Source: Thermoplasmata archaeon (GTDB lineage: Archaea; Thermoplasmatota; Thermoplasmata; Sysuiplasmatales; Sysuiplasmataceae). From it: 37,167 nt of DNA. The stretch is from the NCBI GenBank assembly GCA_021796175.1, contig JAJYOM010000001.1:1-37167 (forward strand). The letters run 5' to 3'. The position numbers and the translations under genes were made by a program. The notes beneath the pieces were generated by a model. It was not told the DNA's origin. It ran no database searches and saw only the letters and a list, made by a program, of their open reading frames with translations. Positions 596 through 25,710 of the stretch are shown one piece after another; the first letter of the stretch is position 1; every line of letters begins with the position of its first letter.

Positions 596-3500
596 ATGTG
601 GACTCAATTGAGTCCGAACTGGCAGGCGGCAATGACAATGACAGGCAGTGTAGAATTCAGATTTGGTGATGTCGCGGATGTAGTGGAGAAGGCATATGGT
701 GATGCTGAATCAGGGAAGCTGCTTTTCGTACTTTCTGACTCGGTCGCTGTTTCTCAGGCGAAAGAGATGCTCCTCAAAAGCAGGGAGGTGGTTGACGGGG
801 GTCCGTTCCTAACATTCGAGGACATAGAAAACAGGATAATGCTCAGCGCCGCCTGCATCAGGCCCTTGTTAATTCCAGATTATGTAAGAAGGGTAATTGC
901 CTCGGAAATTGTGGGAGAGATGGCTGGAAGACACAGGGACAGATTCCATCTTGAGCGTCAGTTCTCCTCGGTTCTGCTTGAAGAATTCGATTCGGTGTGG
1001 CCCTCAGTTATCCACGCAGGCTCTGCGGTTGAAAAAATGCTGAAGGGAGTCGCTCAAAATGAATCCGAGAAGAGGAGGTACTCAACCATACTTGAGTTCG
1101 CAGCACTTTATCAAAGTCGCATGTCTGCACTCAGTAACAGCGGCATCTACGACAGGGTAATACTGGCACATGAGGCCGCCACCCATGCATCGGCACTGAG
1201 AAATCAGGGAGTTGAGAGGGTGATGGTTGTAGGGATGGTCTTTGCAGACGGCGTACTTCTGGATCTTCTGAAAGCAATGTCAGAAAGCATCAGTGTAACA
1301 ATTGTATTGATGCCATCCGACCGAGGCAGGAAATCAGTTCAGCTCATGATGAGAAGGCTGGGAGCGGACGGATTCGGGACAGACAAAGGTGCAGGTGATG
1401 CAAGGGCATCAAGCCTGGGAATATTCGGTGCGCCGGACAGGAGAAGGGAGCTCAGAGAGGTAGCGAGGCGCATTCTGCAGGAAATAAATGATAAAACGCT
1501 TTCACTGGGCGACTTCGCCGTGGTCGCCAGATCCATTTCGGAATATGACGATATTGCGAGGGAAGTTTTCAGTGAATATGGCATTGCACTGGAGGGCGGC
1601 GGCAGGAAGAGGCTGCGGGACACCAGGATGTATTCATTCCTTAGAAAAATACTAGATCTGATCGCAGGCGATATCACAAAGTCCAAGTTAATGAGCCTGC
1701 TCGAGCACGACTTCTTCCCAGTTGCCAACAGCAGACTGGGAGAGCTGGCAGTTTCCGTTGCGCATCTGCCCGAATTGATAGACATTGAAACCGGAGAATC
1801 GCCGCTTGGAGATATCAGCTTGCCATGGGGCGAGACTCTAATTTCCTGGCTGAAAAAGTCTCATATGAGGGCCGCTTCACCTATGAGACTGGAGGAGTGG
1901 GTAGGATTTGCCCTTGAACTCATTTCCGGTGCATCCACAGAACTGCTTGCAGATGAGGAATACCTGGCAAATGGAGAATTCATCAGATCGCTTATTGAAG
2001 TGTCATCGGCGTCTGCAGCATACAGGACCGCTTTGCCTGAGATGAAGCTCGATCTCCGCAGTTTCATTGAGATTCTTGAGGATTTTGCGTATGATAAGAC
2101 TTATGCGGCGGGTGAGGAGGGACAGGGACTTCTGTTCACGGATGCCGGTCTTCTGTATTTCAGAAAATTCGCTCACATTTTCGCAGTTGGTATGAGTGAG
2201 GAGGTCTTCCCGTTCAGGCAAAGAGACGGTATGTTCCTGAGGACAACAATGGTAGATTCAATCTCGAGGATGACATCGGCAGCGAGGACATCTACCGATG
2301 CTGTCGACTCCATCGAAGGACATATTTTTGATTCCATACTGGACAGCTCAGCTGCAGTGACATTCTCATACGTCTACAGCGATGAAAGGGGAAGACGGCT
2401 GCTGCCGTCGACCTTTGTGCTGAACACACTCGAGAAGTGCATGGGACGCAGCCGATTGCTCGAAAGGATAGAGGAGAGAAACCTCGATTTTTCTGCATTT
2501 TATCCGGAAGACGGAGCAGTATGGTCAGTGCACGAGCTGGACAGGCTTCGGGCATCATCAGTCTCGGGGGAGGGGGCCATTATTGACGAGAGTGGAGAGA
2601 ACGGAGCAGTAAAAGCTGAATTCACCGATGTAGTTGAGAGGGGGCGTATCGCCGATGCTGATCCGCTCGAGTGGCGTATTCCTCCCGAAAAGTTGATGAA
2701 ACTGGTAGGTGACAGAACGCTCTCGGCCACCGATCTGTCAGAATATGCAAAATGCCCTTTCAGGTATGTTGCGACCAGAATACTCTCGGCTGTGCCCTCA
2801 ATGCCGCCCATGAATCCGCTTGACAGGGGAGCTCAAATGCACGAGATACTGAAGCGCTTCTACGAGCAGCATGGGCTGGAATACTTGCGGTGCAAGCCAT
2901 TAAATGAAGTGCAGGCTGAGATGGAGAGATGCACGGATGAATACTTCGTCTCTAAATACGGCAGCACATCCTCAATGGGACTTATGTTCTCCATACATGT
3001 GGCGGATATCAAGTCAGCACTCCTTGAATTCATTGGCAGGGATGCCGGAGACGAGACGCTCATGAAAGGAGAATTGGTAGGGCTGGAGCAGAGGTTTGGC
3101 TACTCAGACCAGAAGGAGTTCTTGATCGGCGGACACAGATTCCGCGGGATCATCGACAGGGTAGAGACAGTGGACATAGAGAATGGGAACCTCCTGGTAT
3201 ATGACTACAAATCCGGAAACCCTGACAACCTCACAAGGAAGTACTTCAGGGCGGATGGTCCGCTGCTTGATTTCGGCGTTCCGCTCTATGCACTTTACCT
3301 GAATGATGTTGAAAATAAAAAACTGGCTGGCGCTTTCTACTATATGCTTCTCAAGGCAGATGACAGGCCCGACAGGGCAGGGATCGCAAGGGAGGAGGCA
3401 CTTGAGAACCTCCCAGGCGTTGACAGGAGAAAGCGGTCCTACTTTTCAATAAAACCTGGTCAGGAGTTTGATGAGGAAATCAGCAGACTCAGGGAGGCAG

Positions 3501-3613
3501 TTTGTGAAGTTTCGGACAGTATCACAAGCGGCATATTCAGGGTGGAGCCAAGAGAAGGTGAGTGTGAATACTGCCAGCATTTTGCAATATGCAGGTACGG
3601 TGGTCAGGTGTAA
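596..3613 (+). CDS. AddB/RexB-like PD-(D/E)XK nuclease subunit with helicase-like but Walker-A-less N-terminal region and C-terminal Cys4 (Fe-S) signature
   Basis: 1005-aa ORF with no GxGKT motif seen. C-terminal RecB-type nuclease motifs GIIDRVE...LLVYDYKSG. One Cys codon at 2753-2755 plus CEYCQHFAIC (CxxCx5C, 3563-3592). The stop overlaps the next start as TAATG. The start could also be ATG 632 or 638. Confidence 0.7.
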   Translation: MWTQLSPNWQAAMTMTGSVEFRFGDVADVVEKAYGDAESGKLLFVLSDSVAVSQAKEMLLKSREVVDGGPFLTFEDIENRIMLSAACIRPLLIPDYVRRVIASEIVGEMAGRHRDRFHLERQFSSVLLEEFDSVWPSVIHAGSAVEKMLKGVAQNESEKRRYSTILEFAALYQSRMSALSNSGIYDRVILAHEAATHASALRNQGVERVMVVGMVFADGVLLDLLKAMSESISVTIVLMPSDRGRKSVQLMMRRLGADGFGTDKGAGDARASSLGIFGAPDRRRELREVARRILQEINDKTLSLGDFAVVARSISEYDDIAREVFSEYGIALEGGGRKRLRDTRMYSFLRKILDLIAGDITKSKLMSLLEHDFFPVANSRLGELAVSVAHLPELIDIETGESPLGDISLPWGETLISWLKKSHMRAASPMRLEEWVGFALELISGASTELLADEEYLANGEFIRSLIEVSSASAAYRTALPEMKLDLRSFIEILEDFAYDKTYAAGEEGQGLLFTDAGLLYFRKFAHIFAVGMSEEVFPFRQRDGMFLRTTMVDSISRMTSAARTSTDAVDSIEGHIFDSILDSSAAVTFSYVYSDERGRRLLPSTFVLNTLEKCMGRSRLLERIEERNLDFSAFYPEDGAVWSVHELDRLRASSVSGEGAIIDESGENGAVKAEFTDVVERGRIADADPLEWRIPPEKLMKLVGDRTLSATDLSEYAKCPFRYVATRILSAVPSMPPMNPLDRGAQMHEILKRFYEQHGLEYLRCKPLNEVQAEMERCTDEYFVSKYGSTSSMGLMFSIHVADIKSALLEFIGRDAGDETLMKGELVGLEQRFGYSDQKEFLIGGHRFRGIIDRVETVDIENGNLLVYDYKSGNPDNLTRKYFRADGPLLDFGVPLYALYLNDVENKKLAGAFYYMLLKADDRPDRAGIAREEALENLPGVDRRKRSYFSIKPGQEFDEEISRLREAVCEVSDSITSGIFRVEPREGECEYCQHFAICRYGGQV

Positions 3614-6600
3614 TGGAAGAGCATGGGAAATGCGGGCTCACGGATGAGCAGCTTGCCGTCGTTGAAGCAATAACTGCTGGCAAAATGGTCCTCGCAAAAG
3701 CAGGGGCTGGAAGCGGCAAGACGAAGACTCTTGTGGAGGCATATGCACGACTTGTCGAAAAGGCGAAGGATGCGGCAAACCCATTCGACAGAATACTGGC
3801 GATCACATTCACCAATGAGGCCGCTTACAAACTGAAGAAGGCAGTGTTCGACAGAACAGACAGCGATGTCAGGGCGTTGTTAACAGACAACATCTCAACT
3901 ATACACTCTTTCTGCAATTCTGTGCTTTCCGCACATCTTGTTGAGCTATCCATCAAACCTTCATACGTCATAGCGGACGAGGGCAGTGTGACTGAAGCGG
4001 CATTTGGCATCATCGACAGGATCGCATCTGCCGCCTACGGTGCTGATGAGGAGCTTAGGCGCCTCATTGCAGCGTACGGCTATGATGCAATCGGCCGGTC
4101 GGGTTTCAGGCAGGCACTTTACGGTATTTACTCTGCCATGAGAATGCAAGGAATCAGGGAAAGGGAGCTGGAGAGCCTGCTGGCAATCGGGTCCGGCAAG
4201 CTGCTTGAATTCACCTCTTCCGAGTCTGTCCTGCAGAAGGACGTGCCGATTGACAATGCAACACGTGATTTTGTTGGCAGGGCTGCAGGTACCTTCGGCA
4301 GATATCTGATACGCTTCTGGAGGGAGTTTGAAAATTACAAAAAACTGGAAGGTATGCTGACCTTCGACGACGTGCTTTACTACACATACCAGCTGCTCTC
4401 AGACCACGATTATATACGTGATTTCTACAGGAAGGAATTCGATTACATTCTGGTTGATGAATTCCAGGACACGGACAGGCTGCAATATGAAATCATAACC
4501 ATGATTTCCGATGGGAACAGGCTCGCGTTCGTAGGCGATCAGAAGCAGTCGATCTACGAGTGGAGAAACGCCGATCCAGCTATTATCAACAGCGTGGAAA
4601 GGGAGATAACATCCAGCGGAAGGGGAATATCGCTGGAAATGTCAGACAATTTCAGGAGCACTCCGCAGCTCATCTCGTTTTTCAATCTGGTATTTGCCAG
4701 GGTGTTTGAGAAAGGAAGCATAAGTTACACCGCCATGAGGCATGCGAACAGCTCGATGACAGACCTGGATGAACCTGCAGTGAGGATCATGCTCCCCGGT
4801 GGAGCGAACATAGGCGAAAGAAGGGAAAGGGAGGCTTCGCTGATTTGCGAGGAGGCCAGGAGGCTTGTTTCATCCGACATTCATGTAGAGGGTGAGGAAA
4901 ACGGACAGCTCAGACCTCTGGCGCTCAGGGACATGGCAATACTCTTCCGATCAAGGACGCCTGTGGAAATATATGCAAGGGCGCTCAGAGAAAACGGCAT
5001 TCCTTTCATCCATGTGCAGAGCGAGTCCTTCTTCGAAAAGAGGGAGGTGATTGATATCATGAATTACCTGAACCATCTAGCAGACCCGGCTGACAGATTC
5101 TACACGTTTGCTTCGCTCAGATCGCCGCTCTTCGGTTTGAGCGACGAGACTCTGATTTCACTGTCTGCAAACAGGTTTGATGTTGTCAAAACAGCAGGCG
5201 AGGCTAATGGCAGGGGCAGGGAGAAACTGCTGCTGTTTGCCTCAATTGATGAAGAGTGTTCAAGGAACAGGAATGCGTTTGCACACAGGATGCTTTCCGT
5301 CGCAATAGAAAAGACAAGAATCGATCTTGTCTACCTGTCAGCAAGAGGCGGAAAGCAGGCGTACGCGAATATACTCAAGCTCCTTGACATGATAAGGTCC
5401 ATGGAAAAGGACGGACCCGTGGGCCTGCTGGAGGCAGTCAGGTCATTGAACAGAATGGCTGAAGAGGGAACAGGAGAGTCGGAATATCCGCTCAATGATG
5501 AGAGAAGCGATGCAATAAGGTTAATGACTGTGCATGCCAGCAAGGGACTCGAATTCCCTGTGGTTTTTGTTGCAGACAGCTCACGGGAAAACAGGAATGG
5601 AAAGTCAGACAGTTTCTACCATCCTGAACTTGGTGTAGTTCCCGGTGTTCCCAGGAAGGGAAGGGAAACAACTAGGGATGGTGTGAGGGCTGTAAACAGC
5701 GCAGCATCCATCAGAAGGAATGAGAGCGCGCAGCAGGAGGACAGGAGGATCTTCTATGTCTCTCTCACAAGGGCAAGACAACTCCTGTACCTGTCACAAT
5801 TCGAGTCAAGGAAGAAGAACGATCCCAGCTGGAATGGGACGATAAACTCAATCATTCCGCTTAACCCGGGCGGCAGGGTGCTGCAGCTGACACCCGATTG
5901 CAGCGTCCTGTTCATCAGGCCCGGATCACAGAAGCAGGCTCGTGGCGCCATGACAGGAAGAGTTCGCATTAAGCCTGTGGTCAATACACTTCCCGCTCGA
6001 CTGGTGCGGCAGGAAGGAATTAGGACAATCGCGACTGAGCTAGCTGATTTCATGGTCTGCCCTCTCAGAAAGAAACTGGGGAAGGCTGCTCCTTCCGCCA
6101 GTGGCATCAGGGACAGAATAATCGCGGCAGAAAGGGGCAACGCTGTTCATTCCCTGCTCGAGGACTATAACTATGTTACAGGAGTATTTCCCTTCAGTCC
6201 TGCGCTGGCGGACACCGCCGGAGATGAAATCAGGAAACTTGCAAGTGGATTCATCAAATCAGTTTACGGTGAAATCGTTCACTCCGCAATTTTATCCGGG
6301 AAACTCAGGAGGGAGTTTCCATTCACGATGAAGAGGGGAGCTCATACGATCTCAGGCAAGATTGACCTTGTGGCCGAAGAGGGAGGGAATGTCTGTATTG
6401 TCGACTACAAGACGGGAGACATATCGAGGCATACACCCGAATATACGAACCAGCTGATGCTCTACGCAATTATGCTCAGGGAGCTGGGCGGGAAGAACAG
6501 ATTCAGGCTTGTAAACTTCGCGGTGGACAATCCGTCGCTGACGAGGGATTTTTCTGTCGGGAAGGAGGAGCTGGACTCGTTTGGAATGAGACTTGATGCC

Positions 6601-6738
6601 GCACTTGCAGATATGGTCAAAGGGGTAGAGGGAGCAAGTCCTTCTCCTGAAAACTGCGGCGGCTGCGACTTCAAATCAACATGCGAATTTGCTGACCCAC
6701 CTGAAAGAAAGAGGGCGGGGAACATGGTTAGTCTGTAA
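3613..6738 (+). CDS. AddA-like UvrD/Rep-family SF1 helicase fused to a RecB-type nuclease domain (also carrying a Cys4 signature)
   Basis: Helicase motifs: Walker A AGAGSGKTKT, motif II ILVDEFQDT, VGDQKQSIYEWRNA, DNFRS, VHASKGLEFPVVFV, FYVSLTRARQLLYL. C-terminal nuclease motifs GKIDLV...CIVDYKTG...NQLMLY. Cys at 6058-6060 plus CGGCDFKSTC (6655-6684). I prefer ATG 3613 (TAATG coupling) over the in-frame ATG 3589 given in the track. Confidence 0.85.
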   Translation: MEEHGKCGLTDEQLAVVEAITAGKMVLAKAGAGSGKTKTLVEAYARLVEKAKDAANPFDRILAITFTNEAAYKLKKAVFDRTDSDVRALLTDNISTIHSFCNSVLSAHLVELSIKPSYVIADEGSVTEAAFGIIDRIASAAYGADEELRRLIAAYGYDAIGRSGFRQALYGIYSAMRMQGIRERELESLLAIGSGKLLEFTSSESVLQKDVPIDNATRDFVGRAAGTFGRYLIRFWREFENYKKLEGMLTFDDVLYYTYQLLSDHDYIRDFYRKEFDYILVDEFQDTDRLQYEIITMISDGNRLAFVGDQKQSIYEWRNADPAIINSVEREITSSGRGISLEMSDNFRSTPQLISFFNLVFARVFEKGSISYTAMRHANSSMTDLDEPAVRIMLPGGANIGERREREASLICEEARRLVSSDIHVEGEENGQLRPLALRDMAILFRSRTPVEIYARALRENGIPFIHVQSESFFEKREVIDIMNYLNHLADPADRFYTFASLRSPLFGLSDETLISLSANRFDVVKTAGEANGRGREKLLLFASIDEECSRNRNAFAHRMLSVAIEKTRIDLVYLSARGGKQAYANILKLLDMIRSMEKDGPVGLLEAVRSLNRMAEEGTGESEYPLNDERSDAIRLMTVHASKGLEFPVVFVADSSRENRNGKSDSFYHPELGVVPGVPRKGRETTRDGVRAVNSAASIRRNESAQQEDRRIFYVSLTRARQLLYLSQFESRKKNDPSWNGTINSIIPLNPGGRVLQLTPDCSVLFIRPGSQKQARGAMTGRVRIKPVVNTLPARLVRQEGIRTIATELADFMVCPLRKKLGKAAPSASGIRDRIIAAERGNAVHSLLEDYNYVTGVFPFSPALADTAGDEIRKLASGFIKSVYGEIVHSAILSGKLRREFPFTMKRGAHTISGKIDLVAEEGGNVCIVDYKTGDISRHTPEYTNQLMLYAIMLRELGGKNRFRLVNFAVDNPSLTRDFSVGKEELDSFGMRLDAALADMVKGVEGASPSPENCGGCDFKSTCEFADPPERKRAGNMVSL

Positions 6739-14044: not shown

Positions 14045-14503
14045 TTGCTGGTTTCGATGGAATCGTACAAGCTGACGGCTCTTTCAGTAATGATCGTGAC
14101 CTGGATAGAATTCGTCATAGCGGCAATGGTCGTATTTCTTGATCCGCACTACAATGACTTTCCATACTCAACGATTGTGTTCACATGGCCCGGCATCCTG
14201 GAAGAGATACACAGAATATGGGCGGTCGTCCTCATAGTAGTCTTCATTGTCAATCTTGCAGTCGTCTACGTGCGCGGTAAAGAAGCGAAGCGCCTGAGGA
14301 TGCTTTCCTGGGCAGCCTTTATTCTGCTCATCCTGCAGGCATTACTGGGCGGAATAACGATTTACAGCGCAGATCATCCAGCTAATGTTATAATGCATGA
14401 GGGAAACGCGGGGGTGCTAATGCTGGTCAGTTCTCTCCTGGCTGCTTATGCTCTTTATTCATTCCAGCAGAAGAGTCCGAAAGCCACGCAAGCATCACAG
14501 TGA
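14045..14503 (+). CDS. Half-size (4-TM) CtaA/COX15-like membrane protein, putative compact heme A synthase subunit (copy A)
   Basis: Four hydrophobic helices with conserved His positions: EEIHRIWAVVLIV (ExxHR-like) and VIMHEGNAG. It is a paralogue of the convergent ORF 14427-14876. The start may be ATG 14057. The functional assignment is tentative. Confidence 0.5.
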   Translation: MLVSMESYKLTALSVMIVTWIEFVIAAMVVFLDPHYNDFPYSTIVFTWPGILEEIHRIWAVVLIVVFIVNLAVVYVRGKEAKRLRMLSWAAFILLILQALLGGITIYSADHPANVIMHEGNAGVLMLVSSLLAAYALYSFQQKSPKATQASQ

Positions 14504-21012: not shown

Positions 21013-21726
21013 TCAGAACTGCCCTCCAGGCATTGGCGGAGTTGCTCCGGGAGCCCGCAGGGTGGTCAAACTTCTCCTCACCATGAGATATGCCCAAGCG
21101 AACAGTGCGAACGGCACTCCAAGCAGTAACAGCGCGAATTCATAGGGCATAGACGGTGGGATTAACACGAATGCATGATTGTAGGCAAAACCCGCAACGG
21201 TCACGCCGACCGCGCCACCCAGACCGCCGAAAAATACCTGACCCGCCTGAAATACAGCGAGATAGCCGCCGAAAAGCAGCCAGGCGCCATATGCAATCCA
21301 TAGCAGATTCCTGCCGTTCTCTGCCATGAGTTCCTGCACGGAAAACACGAACGTGAGCCCGGCCACTGCTCCCGCAACAATGTCCAGAGCAAGCAATATG
21401 AAGAAACTGGATACAAGGGAACGCATTGCAGATGAACGGATGGCTGGAACTTCAATTGCATACAGCTGAGAATAAAGACTGTAAATCACGACTGCTGACA
21501 AGATCATGCCCATAACAAAGCACCAAAGAGAAATCAGGACACTTCTTGAGTGCTTCGGGCTGAATGCGGTCCGCCCGGTAATGAGCAGAATCAGGGCAGC
21601 CACTTCCATAACGTAACCTGCAAATTGCAGGTAGGGAATCCACATAAGCAGAACCGATGCGAGGAGAAGTGTGATGCCGTTGATAGTCAGTCTGATATTC
21701 CTCTGATTATAAACCGTGGGGGACAT
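21013..21726 (-). CDS. Hypothetical polytopic membrane protein
   Basis: About 7 hydrophobic segments with a Pro/Gly-rich C-terminal tail. I favour ATG 21726 (A/T-rich box 26-32 nt upstream). The track ORF extends to GTG 21783. Confidence 0.6.
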   Translation of the reverse strand: MSPTVYNQRNIRLTINGITLLLASVLLMWIPYLQFAGYVMEVAALILLITGRTAFSPKHSRSVLISLWCFVMGMILSAVVIYSLYSQLYAIEVPAIRSSAMRSLVSSFFILLALDIVAGAVAGLTFVFSVQELMAENGRNLLWIAYGAWLLFGGYLAVFQAGQVFFGGLGGAVGVTVAGFAYNHAFVLIPPSMPYEFALLLLGVPFALFAWAYLMVRRSLTTLRAPGATPPMPGGQF

Positions 21727-22165
21727 GCAGTAAAATAAGACCTTATACACGAATAAAGAACTTCCTGTCATTGTCTCAACCACACTGAATGCGCAAGAAC
21801 TTCAGGCATTGCTGAGCCGATTCCAGACTGGTAGATGCTGAATGAAAAAACCGCACTTGCTCAGGCTACTTGCATAATCGAACAATCGTTCAACAGTCTG
21901 TTGGCGCACCTGAGCCTGAAAATTTCGTAACCCTCTATACCCTCCTGCCGAGCTCCTGGAGATTTCTTTCTGCACTGTCCCAGAGCTCATTATCTTTCAT
22001 TCGACCCAAAAAGTGTCCCTTATTACCTAGGTCATCAGACGTCTTCGTTTACAGGGTATCGTGACAACTATGATGTCTGAAGGAGACCTTTACAGTTCTT
22101 CTTAATCTGGCGCGGCGCATCATTGTGCAGCTGCGAATCGATTGCAATTTACTCTTTTTAGTCCT

Positions 22166-22410: not shown

Positions 22411-22590
22411 ATGAAGGCAACATTTGCATGCAAAGACATTGGCATGAAGTGCAATTTCGAAACGGAGGCTGCCACAAAAGAAAGTCTGATGCCTAAAATT
22501 GCGGAACACGCGAAGAAGGCACACGGTATATCAACAATTCCCGATGACCTTAGGAGCAAAGTCTCAGCCGCAATCAAGATAAAGCCCTGA
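22411..22590 (+). CDS. DUF1059-type small protein (59 aa), not present in the supplied ORF track
   Basis: Hand translation: MKATFACKDIGMKCNFETEAATKESLMPKIAEHAKKAHGISTIPDDLRSKVSAAIKIKP. This matches the DUF1059 pattern MKxFxCxDxGxxCxF...HAxxxHG...KVxxAIK. ATG 22411, TGA 22588-22590. Confidence 0.8.
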   Translation: MKATFACKDIGMKCNFETEAATKESLMPKIAEHAKKAHGISTIPDDLRSKVSAAIKIKP

Positions 22591-22901: not shown

Positions 22902-22909
22902 ATAATATA
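22902..22909 (+). promoter_or_regulatory. TATA-like box (ATAATATA) for the Rieske/cyt b operon
   Basis: Located 19-26 nt upstream of GTG 22928. Confidence 0.4.
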
Positions 22910-22927: not shown

Positions 22928-23785
22928 GTGACTGAACCTTCCAAGGTAAATGAAAAGAAAGACAAAACAGAGTTAGAGAGGAGAACGTTCATAAAGGCTC
23001 TTGCTGCATCTTCGGCGGCCCTGCTTTTTGGCGGACTGTCTTTTGAGAGTTACATAAATCCTGAAGCACGTAAAACAGCACTGTTGCAGGGATATCCCGT
23101 TGCTGTTCTTGTTGACAGTTCAGGCAAACCAATCACTGTGGACAAAATACCGACAGCCACACAAAACAGCTCTTCGTATCCGATCATGATGTTCAACTAC
23201 CCTCTCCAGGACGAGCCGAACATACTTGTGAAACTGAAGGGCCCCAGTCAGCCGATTCCCGGCGCAGTTGCCCTTCCCACGGGTGAGTACCTGACAGCAT
23301 TCAGTGGGATATGTCAGCATCTTGGATGTGTCGTGCCGCTCCTTGACTATCACCCCCATGACAGCATCCCTTTTGAAGCTCAGCTAATCGGTTACAACGC
23401 GACAAACTGGCCGACGTACGGACTGCTGTTCTGCAAATGCCATGGCAGCCAGTACGACCCGACAAAGGGCCCGCACAACCTGTACAATTCGGGCCCTGCG
23501 CCAAGTCCTGCAAATCACTCACTTCCACAGGTCCTGCTGTCTGTGGATTCAAGCGGTTATGTGTATGCAACCGGACTCAATCCGGTAAATGCGGTGATAA
23601 GGACGCACCTGTGGCAGCCGGGAGGAGAAGAATACGGTAGCGGAGTTGAAGCGGAGAATCTCTCCGGGGGCACACTTTTGCCCACCTATGACGGCCCCGC
23701 TCTGAGTCCTTCAGTGCAGGTGACTGGAACGATTTACAAATCGATAGTGATCAGCAGTGCGAACGGCCCATGGCCCCAGCAATAG
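22928..23785 (+). CDS. Rieske [2Fe-2S] protein with twin-arginine signal/anchor
   Basis: ERRTFIKALAASSAALLF (RR codons 22979-22984). Box I CQHLGC (23312-23329), box II CKCHGS (23432-23449). GTG is the first possible start in this frame. Confidence 0.9.
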   Translation: MTEPSKVNEKKDKTELERRTFIKALAASSAALLFGGLSFESYINPEARKTALLQGYPVAVLVDSSGKPITVDKIPTATQNSSSYPIMMFNYPLQDEPNILVKLKGPSQPIPGAVALPTGEYLTAFSGICQHLGCVVPLLDYHPHDSIPFEAQLIGYNATNWPTYGLLFCKCHGSQYDPTKGPHNLYNSGPAPSPANHSLPQVLLSVDSSGYVYATGLNPVNAVIRTHLWQPGGEEYGSGVEAENLSGGTLLPTYDGPALSPSVQVTGTIYKSIVISSANGPWPQQ

Positions 23786-23797
23786 GGGTGAGGAGAT

Positions 23798-24988
23798 TTG
23801 GGAGAACAGAACGAATACAATCCCTTGAGCCTGATGAAACAGGAGGAGGTTCCTGAAGGCTCTTACACGATTTCATTTCTCCCCCTAACAAAGAGGCAGC
23901 TCCGGCTTGATTACTGGACTGGGGCATTCCTGGCAGCGGCTGTCGTCTACCAGATAGTCACTGGCATCCTGCTTGCGTACTACTATCAATCCGGAAACGG
24001 ATATGGCTCGACTACAGCCATCATCTCCAGTGTCCCTTTCGGACATGTGCTCCTTACTTCTCACCTTTACATGGCTTATGCGATGGTCGCGATGGTCTAC
24101 TTCCATATGTTCAGGCAGTATTTTGTGGGGGCGTACAGAGGCAGATGGAGATGGCTGCAATGGATTATCGGTGTTATTCTTTTCCTGCTTGTCAATGCAA
24201 TCGCTTCGATTGGATACATGCTTACCGTGTCTGTACAGAGTATTCTGGGACTTCACGTTTCTGAGCTCCTTATCCAGAGGAGCATTATCGGCAGACTCTC
24301 GCCAGGTATAGCCGGATGGCTCACTGCGGTTCTCGTCGGGAACGGTACTACAGCCGAGTCCCTCAGTCATCTCCTTGTCCTGCATGCGGCAATACTCAGC
24401 GTAATAGTCCTGGCTCTTGTCGGAGTCCATTTCTTCCTGTATGAGAAATCAGGACCATACGATCCCGAGCCGCCAAAGGAAAAGGAGAAGAAGATTCCCT
24501 GGTTCCCGGTCAACCTGCTGTACACCGTATTCATTTCACTCATATTCATAGCGGGGGTCCTGGTAGCCTCCGCCCTCATACCGCAAGTACTCCCTCCGGA
24601 CTATGGTCAGCTTGTATACGGTACGACACCGTTTCCTGACTGGTACGAAATGCCTGTTTACAAACTGATGGACGTCGCTGGACTTGGGCTCTCAACAGGC
24701 GGTGTTCCGCTTGTCTTTGCCCTGTTGATCTATCTGGTCCTGGTTCCATTTATTGACAGGTACAAGGGAAACGGACCACTGGAAAGACCAATGATTACAT
24801 TCATGGGAGTTTTCATCATCCTATTCTGGCTCGTGGTTGGTTTGTGGGGATACGCTCAGCCTGGCCTGTCTCAGACCCGGCCCTTGACTTTGTACATGCT
24901 CTATGCACTTACTTTCTGCGCAATAGTTCCTGTATATGCGATGAAACATGCCAAGAAGGATTTGAGCAAACAGGTGGTGAAGTCATGA
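23798..24988 (+). CDS. Cytochrome b (b + subunit-IV-like fused, archaeal SoxC/SoxN-like)
   Basis: 396 aa, about 9-10 TM segments. Bis-His pairs HLYMAYAMVAMVYFH (Hx13H) and HAAILSVIVLALVGVH (Hx14H). TTG 23798 (or ATG 23834), 12 nt after the Rieske stop. Confidence 0.85.
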   Translation: MGEQNEYNPLSLMKQEEVPEGSYTISFLPLTKRQLRLDYWTGAFLAAAVVYQIVTGILLAYYYQSGNGYGSTTAIISSVPFGHVLLTSHLYMAYAMVAMVYFHMFRQYFVGAYRGRWRWLQWIIGVILFLLVNAIASIGYMLTVSVQSILGLHVSELLIQRSIIGRLSPGIAGWLTAVLVGNGTTAESLSHLLVLHAAILSVIVLALVGVHFFLYEKSGPYDPEPPKEKEKKIPWFPVNLLYTVFISLIFIAGVLVASALIPQVLPPDYGQLVYGTTPFPDWYEMPVYKLMDVAGLGLSTGGVPLVFALLIYLVLVPFIDRYKGNGPLERPMITFMGVFIILFWLVVGLWGYAQPGLSQTRPLTLYMLYALTFCAIVPVYAMKHAKKDLSKQVVKS

Positions 24989-25179
24989 AGGCGGTCTACC
25001 TGTATCCTGTTGTTGCGGTTCAGTTTGTCATCGCCCTTGCAATGTGGTACATTTCACTTACAAACCCGGTAGGGTATCAGTCAGAATGGGCGATTCTTCT
25101 GGCCGTCGAGCTCTTTTTGCTCGCAATTGTCATCCTTTCAGCCATCAGATATTTCGTGGGTGATAAGCTTGGAAGATAA
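24985..25179 (+). CDS. Small 2-TM membrane protein (64 aa), candidate accessory subunit
   Basis: The ATG overlaps the cytochrome b stop (ATGA 24985-24988). MKAVYLYPVVAVQFVIALAMWYISL...WAILLAVELFLLAIVILSAI. The track shows a longer shadow start at 24844 inside cyt b. Confidence 0.55.
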   Translation: MKAVYLYPVVAVQFVIALAMWYISLTNPVGYQSEWAILLAVELFLLAIVILSAIRYFVGDKLGR

Positions 25180-25204
25180 GGCTCTTAAGGCATATTATGC
25201 CTCG

Positions 25205-25507
25205 ATGATATTGTTTCTGCTTGGCTCGATATTTGTAATACTTTTTGGAGTGGTCATAGAACCGGTTGTCGGACTGTATCATGAGAACACACGTTCGATG
25301 ATATCACCAATCTTCGGCAACTTTTACAACTTCATAATGGCACTCGCGTTGATCGCATCGATAATTACAACGATGTCGCTTGCTCTGTTCGTCATTTCAT
25401 ATCTGCTGGCAAGAAAATCCAGTTTGAAGATGTCCAGAGTGACACTGCTCTTTCCACTACTGCTTTACACATTCTCTTATGCCCTGATAGTGGTGAGCCT
25501 TAAATGA
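25205..25507 (+). CDS. Small 3-TM membrane protein (~100 aa), candidate accessory subunit
   Basis: MILFLLGSIFVILFGVVIEPV...NFIMALALIASIITTMSLALFVISYLL...LLFPLLLYTFSYALIVVSL. The start is uncertain (ATG 25205; GTG 25160 and TTG 25169 are also in frame). Confidence 0.5.
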   Translation: MILFLLGSIFVILFGVVIEPVVGLYHENTRSMISPIFGNFYNFIMALALIASIITTMSLALFVISYLLARKSSLKMSRVTLLFPLLLYTFSYALIVVSLK

Positions 25508-25710
25508 ACTACGGGAAGATGAATCTACTGATAATCATAGGAGGAATGCTGCTCCTGGCAATTGCCTCACCTCTGTTCGCCTTTTACAATCTGTTCCCCA
25601 GGATTAATAATCAGATTGGACCCCACCAGTTGTCGAGCTGGGTTGCACTCCTTATTGGTTTCATAGGATTTGTAATGATAATTTACGGCTCCGCCAGACA
25701 CAACATCTGA
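25504..25710 (+). CDS. Small 2-TM membrane protein (68 aa), candidate accessory subunit
   Basis: The ATG overlaps the previous stop (ATGA 25504-25507). NLLIIIGGMLLLAIASPLFAF...WVALLIGFIGFVMIIYG. Confidence 0.55.
   Translation: MNYGKMNLLIIIGGMLLLAIASPLFAFYNLFPRINNQIGPHQLSSWVALLIGFIGFVMIIYGSARHNI

What the first reader, a model, noticed from the sequence alone, without database searches (positions are those of the whole stretch)
22928..25710. Rieske-cytochrome b operon followed by three chained mini membrane ORFs: candidate uncharacterised subunits of an archaeal complex-III analogue
Seen: a Tat-signal Rieske protein (CQHLGC/CKCHGS). Twelve nt later comes a 396-aa cytochrome b with Hx13H and Hx14H heme-ligand pairs. 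Then come three hydrophobic ORFs of 64, ~100 and 68 aa (2, 3 and 2 predicted helices). They are linked by ATGA overlaps at 24985-24988 and 25504-25507 and a 25-nt gap. I saw no CxxCH (cytochrome c1-type) motif and no blue-copper protein in the operon. Established: archaeal Rieske/cyt b complexes (for example in Sulfolobales) lack c1 and use lineage-specific partners. Small TM subunits are routinely missed in annotation. Inference: the three mini-proteins are stoichiometric subunits or assembly factors of a quinol-oxidising complex whose electron-output module is unknown.
Basis: partly seen in the sequence, partly recalled or inferred. Interest (0 to 1): 0.65.

Follow-up and report, generated by a model that had tools for sequence, protein, structure and literature searches.

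The report
Five-gene Rieske/cytochrome b operon, Thermoplasmata
Behind the Rieske and cytochrome b genes of this acid-mine archaeon lie three small membrane-protein genes that are kept, in the same order, in every relative examined and belong to no described family, so they are most likely unrecognised subunits of a quinol-oxidising respiratory complex whose electron acceptor is still unknown.

Summary
Window 22928-25710 (+) carries a Tat-signal Rieske protein, a 396-aa cytochrome b (H89/H103, H196/H211, PDWY) and three small hydrophobic ORFs.

One correction: the middle ORF starts at TTG 25169, giving 112 aa. It overlaps the first small ORF by 11 nt. It does not start at ATG 25205 after a 25-nt gap.

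All 23 loci of this cytochrome b clade with downstream DNA carry the same three ORFs in the same order, while the flanking genes differ. The loci include Thermoplasma, Picrophilus, Acidiplasma and MAGs.

The small ORFs are under purifying selection (dN/dS about 0.04-0.3, one near-identical pair higher). Most have Shine-Dalgarno-like sites and overlapping stop/start junctions. They sit in different frames, so they are not one frameshifted gene.

In published Acidiplasma RNA-seq their transcripts track cytochrome b (r 0.78-0.91).

The three are unrelated to each other. They match no Pfam or NCBIfam family and no PDB sequence; AF2 models of the second and third found no PDB fold. An exhaustive profile search of 1.84 billion proteins found the 112-aa family only in this cassette.

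They have no Cys and no CxxCH. Their conserved loops are predicted to lie on the outer face.

Best reading: lineage-specific accessory subunits of the complex. Physical association is not shown.

The parts
22902..22909 (+). ATAATATA, a possible archaeal TATA box about 22 nt upstream of the Rieske start codon. It would give a leaderless or short-leader operon mRNA.
   Evidence: Sequence read directly. The function is inferred only; the promoter scanner covers bacterial sigma-70 sites and is not applicable.
22928..23785 (+). Rieske [2Fe-2S] protein, 285 aa, GTG start. Twin-arginine signal or anchor (RRTFIK), CQHLGC and CKCHGS boxes 34 residues apart, GPAP loop, and a C-terminal extension of about 90 aa.
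   Evidence: best NCBIfam match SoxL2, E 1.5e-20, below the equivalog cut-off. Found directly upstream of cyt b in all 23 other loci.
23787..23791 (+). GGTGA Shine-Dalgarno-like site 6 nt before the cyt b start.
23798..24988 (+). Cytochrome b, 396 aa, TTG start, 8 TM helices. Haem ligand pairs H89/H103 and H196/H211; Qo motif PDWY at 280-283.
   Evidence: Pfam Cytochrom_B_N_2 E 2e-37. Best NCBIfam match SoxC, E 2.5e-53, below cut-off. Ligands and PDWY are invariant in 18 homologues. The TTG 23798 start is supported by the conserved N-terminus (NEY..L) and the SD site; the database gene call P0001 starts later, at ATG 23834.
24976..24980 (+). GGTGA SD-like site 4 nt before the s1 start, inside the end of cyt b.
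24985..25179 (+). s1: 64-aa, 2-TM protein. Its ATG overlaps the cyt b stop (ATGA). The conserved outer loop is NPxxYQxxW, with Q13, W21 and W35 invariant.
25159..25164 (+). GGTGAT SD-like site 4 nt before the s2 start.
25169..25507 (+). s2: 112-aa, 3-TM protein, TTG start, overlapping s1 by 11 nt. The invariant outer-loop motif is Y37-x-E39-x4-M44-x-S46-P47-x-F49(>=90%)-G50-N51.
   Evidence: AF2 model pLDDT 92.9 with helices 3-37, 52-83 and 90-111. Family of 82 clusters, all unnamed. The exhaustive search found nothing outside the family.
25492..25496 (+). GGTGA SD-like site 7 nt before the s3 start. It also encodes the conserved GVS end of s2.
25504..25710 (+). s3: 68-aa, 2-TM hairpin. Its ATG overlaps the s2 stop (ATGA). 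The conserved outer loop is FPxINxQIG-P-H41-Q42-xx-S45-W46.
   Evidence: AF2 model pLDDT 91.2 with helices 3-26 and 43-66.

Best explanation
The region is a single five-gene operon encoding the core Rieske/cytochrome b quinol-oxidising complex of a Thermoplasmata archaeon from mine drainage.

The three small genes encode real membrane proteins: s1 (64 aa, 2 TM), s2 (112 aa, 3 TM) and s3 (68 aa, 2 TM). They are made together with cytochrome b through overlapping stop/start junctions and their own ribosome-binding sites. Most likely they assemble around the 8-helix cytochrome b and the Rieske anchor as lineage-specific accessory subunits. That would add 7 helices per monomer, comparable in role to PetG/L/M/N of b6f or the small supernumerary subunits of bc1.

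Their N-termini and K/R-rich loops are predicted to face the cytoplasm. Their only strongly conserved stretches would then lie on the outer (P) face, where the Qo site and the mobile Rieske head operate. I infer that they shape or stabilise that face, or the docking site for the still unidentified electron acceptor. They would not carry electrons themselves, because they have no Cys, no CxxCH and no strictly invariant His.

Shown: the genes, their conservation, selection, coupling signals and co-expression, and the absence of relatives. Inferred: membership of the complex, stoichiometry, topology and the role at the P face.
For: - Synteny: s1-s2-s3 follow cyt b in 23 of 23 loci, with the Rieske gene upstream in all and unrelated flanks.
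- Distribution: the families occur only with this cassette. s2 has 82 clusters and s3 has 80, in the same taxa, with adjacent locus tags. A profile search of 1.84e9 representatives found only 7 true s2 members and one spurious repeat protein. A paralogous 537-aa cyt b in L004 is not followed by the small ORFs.
- Selection: dN/dS is 0.04-0.30 wherever dS is estimable, except 0.48 for s3 in one near-identical pair. Codon-position variation is 3>1>2, and dN is 2-3 times that of cyt b, as expected for peripheral subunits.
- Coupling: junctions are -4, -11 and -4 nt in the window. SD matches of 5 or more bases lie upstream of s1 in 17/23 loci, s2 in 12/23 and s3 in 15/23, against 5% background.
- Expression: in Acidiplasma sp. 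YE-1 RNA-seq (PMC12524180, Table S2) the three hypothetical genes after cyt b are transcribed. s2 and s3 reach 55-70% of the cyt b read density. Over 12 samples they correlate with cyt b at r = 0.83, 0.78 and 0.91, but not with the flanking genes.
- Structure and topology: AF2 models are confident (pLDDT 92.9 and 91.2) and purely helical. The positive-inside rule places the conserved loops outside.
Against: - No direct evidence of physical association. The Cuniculiplasma proteome look-up under guessed locus tags was uninformative.
- No RNA from this organism itself was found in the metatranscriptome contigs.
- The s1 read density in Acidiplasma is only about 10% of cyt b. This may be a counting artefact for a 200-nt gene overlapped at both ends, or it may mean non-stoichiometric expression.
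- The 150-kDa complex purified from Ferroplasma acidiphilum is described in secondary sources as Rieske plus dihaem cytochrome only. The primary paper (Castelle et al. 2015) could not be read.
- Co-transcription fits assembly factors equally well.
Confidence: 0.6

Rival explanations
1. The three proteins are assembly or maturation factors, not parts of the finished complex. They could hold cytochrome b while its haems are inserted, or receive the Tat-exported Rieske protein and help its anchor to insert.
For: They share the same synteny and co-expression. TatA and TatC lie divergently next to the operon in Thermoplasma, Picrophilus and two Acidiplasma-type loci, which points to local clustering of biogenesis functions. 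Transcript density of s1 is lower than that of cyt b. Secondary sources describe the purified Ferroplasma complex as two components.
Against: Tight translational coupling of three unrelated small proteins, and their strict 1:1:1 co-occurrence, are more typical of structural subunits. The best-conserved residues are predicted on the outer face, not where haem insertion or Tat docking on the cytoplasmic side would need them. No similarity was found to any assembly-factor family in Pfam or NCBIfam.
Confidence: 0.2
2. The three proteins are themselves the missing electron-exit module. Together they would bind a cofactor, for example a His/Met-ligated haem held between small subunits as in cytochrome b559. 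Alternatively they would form the obligatory membrane dock for an acceptor encoded elsewhere, taking the place of cytochrome c1 or f.
For: The operon has no c1/f-type, CbsA-type or cupredoxin gene. Thermoplasmatales papers state that the acceptor is unknown. The conserved outer-face residues include s2 Met44 (invariant in 40 sequences) and s3 His41 (at least 90%). In Acidiplasma the cassette is not co-regulated with the sulfocyanin/oxidase cluster.
Against: s3 His41 is Asn in cluster P0212, which is seen on 29 contigs. s2 His38 is Asn in many members, s1 has no His, and none of the three has Cys. No known cofactor-binding motif or fold was found.
Confidence: 0.12
3. The small ORFs are not real separate genes. 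They would be either chance ORFs in a hydrophobic, AT-richer tail or one longer gene broken by a frameshift.
For: The ORFs are short, and two of them use overlapping starts. The window's database call for s2 used a different start (P0131, 100 aa).
Against: All three are conserved in 23 of 23 loci down to about 30% identity, with invariant motifs. They show purifying selection, distinct frames, junction geometry that varies between lineages, SD-like sites and transcript evidence. An independent contig shows no indel.
Confidence: 0.01

Closest known systems
Small subunits PetG, PetL, PetM and PetN of the cytochrome b6f complex (also Qcr8/9/10-type supernumerary subunits of mitochondrial bc1)
   Same: They are small hydrophobic proteins without cofactors that pack against the cytochrome b core of a Rieske/cyt b complex. 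They are lineage-specific, evolve fast and are easily overlooked. This is the functional analogy I favour (own knowledge of these complexes).
   Different: The known subunits have a single helix of about 30-40 aa (Pet) or are eukaryotic supernumerary subunits. Here the proteins have 2, 3 and 2 helices. No Pfam match to any Pet family or other family was found, no PDB sequence or fold match, and here all three are encoded in the operon directly behind cyt b.
Sulfolobales Rieske/cyt b systems: SoxM supercomplex (SoxEFGHIM) and SoxL2N-CbsAB-OdsN
   Same: These hold the closest catalytic relatives. The Rieske protein's best NCBIfam match is SoxL2 and cyt b's best is SoxC. Published phylogeny places Thermoplasma cyt b with SoxG in an archaeal clade with a PDWY motif (PMC4122944). 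Neither system has cytochrome c1.
   Different: Both scores are far below the equivalog cut-offs (73 vs 582 bits; 182 vs 740 bits). No sulfocyanin, CbsA/CbsB, OdsN or oxidase subunit lies in or beside the operon. s1-s3 match no NCBIfam model, and the exhaustive s2 search found no Sulfolobales relative.
The 150-kDa 'ba complex' (Rieske protein plus dihaem cytochrome) purified from Ferroplasma acidiphilum (Castelle et al. 2015, known here only through PMC8280799 and PMC10354927)
   Same: It comes from the same order of archaea. Ferroplasma genomes carry the s2 and s3 families, so this may be the very complex encoded by the cassette.
   Different: Ferroplasma and Acidiplasma also have a second Rieske/cyt b pair inside the sulfocyanin-oxidase cluster. 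Which pair was purified, and whether small subunits were looked for, could not be checked because the paper is not held.
Small accessory subunits found late in other respiratory complexes (CydX/CydS of cytochrome bd; small subunits of the actinobacterial III2IV2 supercomplex)
   Same: They set the general precedent: proteins under 120 aa, encoded in or next to the operon, turned out to be bona fide subunits once structures were solved (own knowledge). Corynebacterium III2IV2 small chains appear among the non-significant fold hits for s3.
   Different: There is no sequence or significant fold relationship (all Foldseek E > 1).

Membership tests
Rieske/cytochrome b (bc-type) quinol-oxidising complex | Cytochrome b with two bis-His haem ligand pairs on helices B and D | tested here: met
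   H89-x13-H103 and H196-x14-H211. All four His are invariant in 18 homologues. Pfam Cytochrom_B_N_2 E 2e-37.
Rieske/cytochrome b (bc-type) quinol-oxidising complex | Qo-site P(E/D)WY motif in the ef loop | tested here: met
   PDWY at 280-283, invariant.
Rieske/cytochrome b (bc-type) quinol-oxidising complex | Rieske protein with CxHxGC and CxCHxS cluster boxes, exported by Tat, encoded next to cyt b | tested here: met
   CQHLGC at 129, CKCHGS at 169, RRTFIK at 18; 12 nt upstream of cyt b. The TAT signal passes the NCBIfam cut-off. The Pfam Rieske score is just below its cut-off (18.7 vs 20.3 bits), so the domain is divergent.
Rieske/cytochrome b (bc-type) quinol-oxidising complex | A third redox subunit that accepts electrons from the Rieske cluster (cytochrome c1/f, dihaem c, CbsA or cupredoxin) | tested here: not met
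   No CxxCH in any of the five proteins. No cytochrome c or cupredoxin domain was found in the operon or in the other window ORFs scanned. One may be encoded elsewhere in the genome.
Sulfolobales SoxL2 / SoxC equivalogs (NCBIfam TIGR03171, NF041076) | Score above the curated equivalog cut-off | tested here: not met
   73.4 bits against a cut-off of 582.1, and 181.8 bits against 740. These are related proteins but not the same subunits.
b6f small subunits PetG/PetL/PetM/PetN | Sequence membership of the Pfam Pet families; single TM helix of about 30-40 aa | tested here: not met
   No Pfam hit to these families at E <= 1. The proteins have 2, 3 and 2 helices. They are analogous at most.
Haem-bridging small subunits (cytochrome b559 type) | Strictly conserved haem-ligating His in each partner helix | tested here: not met
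   s1 has no His. s2 His38 is Asn in many members. s3 His41 is Asn in P0212.
Accessory subunit of the complex (functional class, not a sequence family) | Co-purifies with, or is seen in a structure of, the complex | not testable with these tools
No proteomic or structural data are available.
Accessory subunit of the complex (functional class, not a sequence family) | Obligate co-occurrence and co-expression with the catalytic genes | tested here: met
   Present in 23 of 23 loci. The s2 family was found nowhere else. RNA-seq correlation with cyt b is r 0.78-0.91.

The most novel reading that the evidence does not exclude
The three small proteins together form a new kind of electron-exit or docking module on the outer face of an archaeal Rieske/cyt b complex, replacing cytochrome c1/f. 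They would do this either by holding an unrecognised cofactor (for example a haem ligated by s3 His41 and s2 Met44) or by forming the specific site through which the Rieske cluster reduces a non-canonical acceptor. This would explain how Thermoplasmatales that lack c-type cytochromes, and in some cases cupredoxins, use a bc-type complex.
Probability: 0.12. Interest if true: 0.8.

Novelty: new variant of a known kind. Interest (0 to 1): 0.5.

Why it matters
Published genome papers treat the Thermoplasmatales 'complex III' as two genes, and they say openly that its electron acceptor is unknown (PMC5155288, PMC3750248). This analysis shows that the conserved unit is five genes.

The three extra proteins have no detectable relatives anywhere else. 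They would add 7 helices to each monomer of the complex.

This changes what must be expressed to reconstitute the enzyme. It also tells people what to look for in mass spectrometry and cryo-EM of these membranes. Finally, it offers conserved residues, predicted on the outer face, as handles for finding the acceptor.

It is also a clean example of small membrane proteins that are called in genomes but left unnamed.

Tried and rejected
1. Complex prediction. I built a paired alignment of 18 loci with cyt b, s1, s3 and s2 joined by linkers, to get a pseudo-multimer AF2 model.

2. Fold searches. The AF2 models of s2 and s3 gave only non-significant helical-hairpin hits against the PDB, all with E > 1.

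3. Profile searches against PDB sequences gave only chance hits for all three proteins.

4. Paralogy. hhalign of s1, s2, s3 and cyt b against each other gave probabilities of 10% or less, so these are three unrelated families and not detached cyt b helices.

5. RNA evidence for this organism. Metatranscriptome contigs from the same study hold nothing from the region. RNA runs for the Acidiplasma and Picrophilus loci could not be queried.

6. Proteomics. Locus tags guessed for Cuniculiplasma turned out to be unrelated genes or were absent. T. acidophilum tags Ta1218-Ta1223 are not mentioned in the library.

7. The primary Ferroplasma complex paper is not held.

8. The one extra hit of the exhaustive search (P0230, 351 aa) is a tandem-repeat protein and not a relative.

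9. The sigma-70 promoter and terminator scan does not apply to an archaeon.

10. The ATG 25205 start for s2 was rejected. It has no SD-like site, and it would remove the conserved N-terminus (M-x-x-x-A-L-x-x-Y-Y).
Full report
**What is there**

The + strand of 22928-25710 holds five tightly packed genes.

- Gene 1, 22928-23785 (GTG start, 285 aa), is a Rieske protein. It has a twin-arginine motif (RRTFIK at residue 18) and the cluster boxes CQHLGC (129) and CKCHGS (169). It is divergent. The Pfam Rieske and TAT_signal scores fall just under their cut-offs. NCBIfam gives SoxL2 as the best match (E 1.5e-20), and the TAT signal domain passes its cut-off.
- Gene 2 begins 12 nt later, at 23798-24988 (TTG start, 396 aa). 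It is a cytochrome b (Pfam E 2e-37). It has exactly one Hx13H (H89/H103), one Hx14H (H196/H211) and a PDWY Qo motif. All of these are invariant in 18 homologues.
- The public gene call for this protein (P0001, 384 aa) starts at ATG 23834. The N-terminus is conserved in relatives, and a GGTGA lies 6 nt before TTG 23798. Both favour the longer form.
- Then come s1 (24985-25179, 64 aa), s2 and s3 (25504-25710, 68 aa).

**Correction to the middle ORF**

Homologues are 112-116 aa and begin with a conserved M-x-x-x-(A/S)-L-x-x-Y-Y. In the three closest relatives an ATG sits at the position of the window's TTG 25169, with the same 11-nt overlap onto s1. TTG 25169 is preceded by GGTGAT at a 4-nt spacing, whereas ATG 25205 has no such site. 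So s2 is 25169-25507, 112 aa.

**Organism and context**

The closest loci are Thermoplasmata MAGs with 77-82% cyt b identity. The sequence occurs in mine-drainage metagenomes, and the window also encodes a tricorn protease. An independent assembly contig covers the whole operon with no indel. Among the 20 other large window ORFs scanned there is no oxidase, cytochrome c or cupredoxin gene.

**Are the small ORFs real genes?**

- I collected 23 further loci of this cytochrome b clade from species-representative genomes, NCBI/ENA/Logan assemblies and JGI metagenomes. They include Thermoplasma sp., Picrophilus oshimae and Acidiplasma sp..
- Profile HMMs of s1, s2 and s3 hit ORFs directly downstream of cyt b, in the same order and strand, in all 22 loci that extend beyond cyt b. 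The 23rd ends inside cyt b.
- The Rieske gene is upstream in all 23.
- None of the window's flanking genes is conserved, even in the closest relatives. The neighbours in the other loci are all different. The five genes are therefore the conserved unit.
- Lengths are stable at 61-67, 112-116 and 64-83 aa. Junctions range from -26 to +20 nt and differ between lineages. s1, s2 and s3 lie in different frames. These facts rule out a single frameshifted gene.
- Mean pairwise variation by codon position is 3>1>2 for each ORF. dN/dS is 0.04-0.30 wherever dS can be estimated, apart from 0.48 for s3 in one near-identical pair (L016/L017). dN is two to three times that of cyt b.
- SD-like matches of 5 or more bases lie upstream of s1 in 17/23 loci, s2 in 12/23 and s3 in 15/23. 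The background inside the cyt b coding sequence is 5%. In the window all four internal genes have GGTGA-type sites 4-7 nt before the start.

**Expression**

No RNA from this organism was found. A published RNA-seq data set of Acidiplasma sp. YE-1 (PMC12524180, Table S2) helps instead.

[quoted passage not shown] This is the gene order of my Acidiplasma locus L006.
- All three hypothetical genes have reads in all 12 samples.
- Read density for s2 and s3 is 55-70% of that of cyt b. For s1 it is about 10%.
- Log counts correlate with cyt b at r = 0.83, 0.78 and 0.91. The corresponding values for the downstream gene and for TatA are 0.40 and -0.40.
- The cassette is essentially unregulated across substrates. 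The sulfocyanin/oxidase cluster of the same organism changes by up to 2.5-2.9 log2 units, depending on the substrate.

**What are the proteins?**

- They match no Pfam family and no NCBIfam family.
- Profile searches against all PDB sequences give only chance hits.
- AF2 models are confident: s2 has pLDDT 92.9 with three long helices, and s3 has pLDDT 91.2 as a helical hairpin. Neither has a significant structural neighbour.
- The three are unrelated to each other and to cyt b.
- The s2 family has 82 clusters at 90% identity and the s3 family has 80. All are labelled 'hypothetical', and both families come from the same set of organisms: Thermoplasma acidophilum and T. volcanium, Picrophilus, Ferroplasma, Acidiplasma, many Thermoplasmata MAGs, and a few MAGs labelled Nitrososphaerota or Conexivisphaerales. 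Locus tags are often adjacent.
- An exhaustive HMM search of 1.84 billion representative proteins with the s2 profile found seven family members and one spurious repeat protein.
- A second, 537-aa cytochrome b about 5 kb upstream of the cassette in the Thermoplasma locus is not followed by the small genes.

**Anatomy**

None of the three has Cys or CxxCH. K/R counts put the N-termini of all three, the second loop of s2 and the C-terminus of s1 on the cytoplasmic side. By that prediction the strongly conserved stretches are all on the outer face:

- s1: NPxxYQxxW.
- s2: Y37-x-E39-xxxx-M44-x-S46-P47-x-F-G50-N51, invariant in 40 sequences apart from the Phe.
- s3: FPxINxQIG-P-H41-Q42-xx-S45-W46.

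s3 His41 is Asn in one well-sampled cluster (P0212). s2 His38 is often Asn.

**Interpretation**

The evidence shows three real, co-expressed membrane proteins whose existence is tied to this Rieske/cyt b pair.

- The most economical reading is that they are lineage-specific accessory subunits (confidence about 0.6). They would work like PetG/L/M/N of b6f or the small bc1 subunits, and would perhaps shape the outer face where the Rieske head and the unknown acceptor meet.
- Assembly factors remain possible (about 0.2).
- A cofactor-bearing or docking module that replaces cytochrome c1 is the most novel reading not excluded (about 0.12). The non-invariant His residues and the lack of Cys weaken it.
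- Chance ORFs or a broken single gene are excluded.

**Comparison with the literature**

Genome papers on Thermoplasmatales describe complex III as the Rieske and cytochrome b genes only, and they say the route from it to an acceptor is unknown (PMC5155288; PMC3750248; PMC5468238). Secondary sources report a 150-kDa Rieske/dihaem-cytochrome 'ba complex' purified from Ferroplasma acidiphilum. I could not read the primary paper. I found no mention of the three small genes in the searchable library. Papers outside the library may exist.

**Verdict**

This is a new variant of a known kind of system, of moderate interest.

Noticed in passing
window 14045-14503 (+): A 152-aa ORF matches only the central part of Pfam COX15-CtaA (E 6.6e-9) and no NCBIfam model. 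It may be a short archaeal-type haem a synthase. A 2026 survey reports short 'type 0' forms in Thermoplasmatota (PMC12808453). If so, the organism makes haem a, which in some acidophilic archaea also sits in the cytochrome of the 'ba complex'.
   Followed up: partly
window 23798 vs 23834: The public gene call for the cytochrome b of this contig (P0001, 384 aa) starts at ATG 23834. The conserved N-terminus and an SD-like GGTGA favour TTG 23798 (396 aa). Likewise, the public call for s2 (P0131, 100 aa) starts at ATG 25205 instead of TTG 25169.
   Followed up: yes
L004 1-1089 (Thermoplasma sp. contig), about 5 kb upstream of the cassette: A second, longer cytochrome b paralogue (537 aa) lies here. 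It is followed by genes on the opposite strand and not by small ORFs. The Acidiplasma paper also describes a second Rieske/cyt b6 pair inside the sulfocyanin-oxidase cluster. These archaea therefore have two different Rieske/cyt b systems.
   Followed up: partly
L004, L005, L006, L009: 3.4-4.8 kb in each locus: TatC and TatA genes lie divergently, directly upstream of the Rieske gene, in Thermoplasma, Picrophilus and two Acidiplasma-type loci. They are absent from that position in the window and its close relatives. In Acidiplasma RNA-seq TatA is very highly expressed but not correlated with the cassette.
   Followed up: partly
L008 and L019 (MAGs labelled Nitrososphaerota; related clusters labelled Conexivisphaerales or Nitrososphaeria): The most divergent copies of the cassette come from MAGs filed under a different phylum. 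In L008 the cassette sits next to a NarI-like cytochrome b plus a CCG-domain Fe-S protein, DsrE and ATP sulfurylase genes. This reflects either mislabelled bins or transfer of the whole five-gene unit between phyla.
   Followed up: no
window 22411-22590 (+): A 59-aa DUF1059 protein (E 3e-20) is encoded 337 nt upstream of the operon on the same strand. It is not conserved next to the operon in any relative, so it is probably unrelated.
   Followed up: yes
window 21013-21783 (-): A 256-aa ORF with many hydrophobic stretches has no Pfam or NCBIfam match. It is not conserved near the operon in relatives.
   Followed up: partly
window 596-6738 (+): Two large adjacent genes (1005 and 1049 aa) have PD-(D/E)XK nuclease and UvrD-helicase plus nuclease domains. 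This resembles a bacterial AddAB-type helicase-nuclease pair, which is unusual in an archaeon.
   Followed up: no
L004 5157-5999: In the Thermoplasma Logan contig the Rieske gene is called as two pieces (190 and 60 aa), although tblastn aligns it in one frame over 5163-5984. The likely cause is an in-frame stop or an assembly error in that contig.
   Followed up: no
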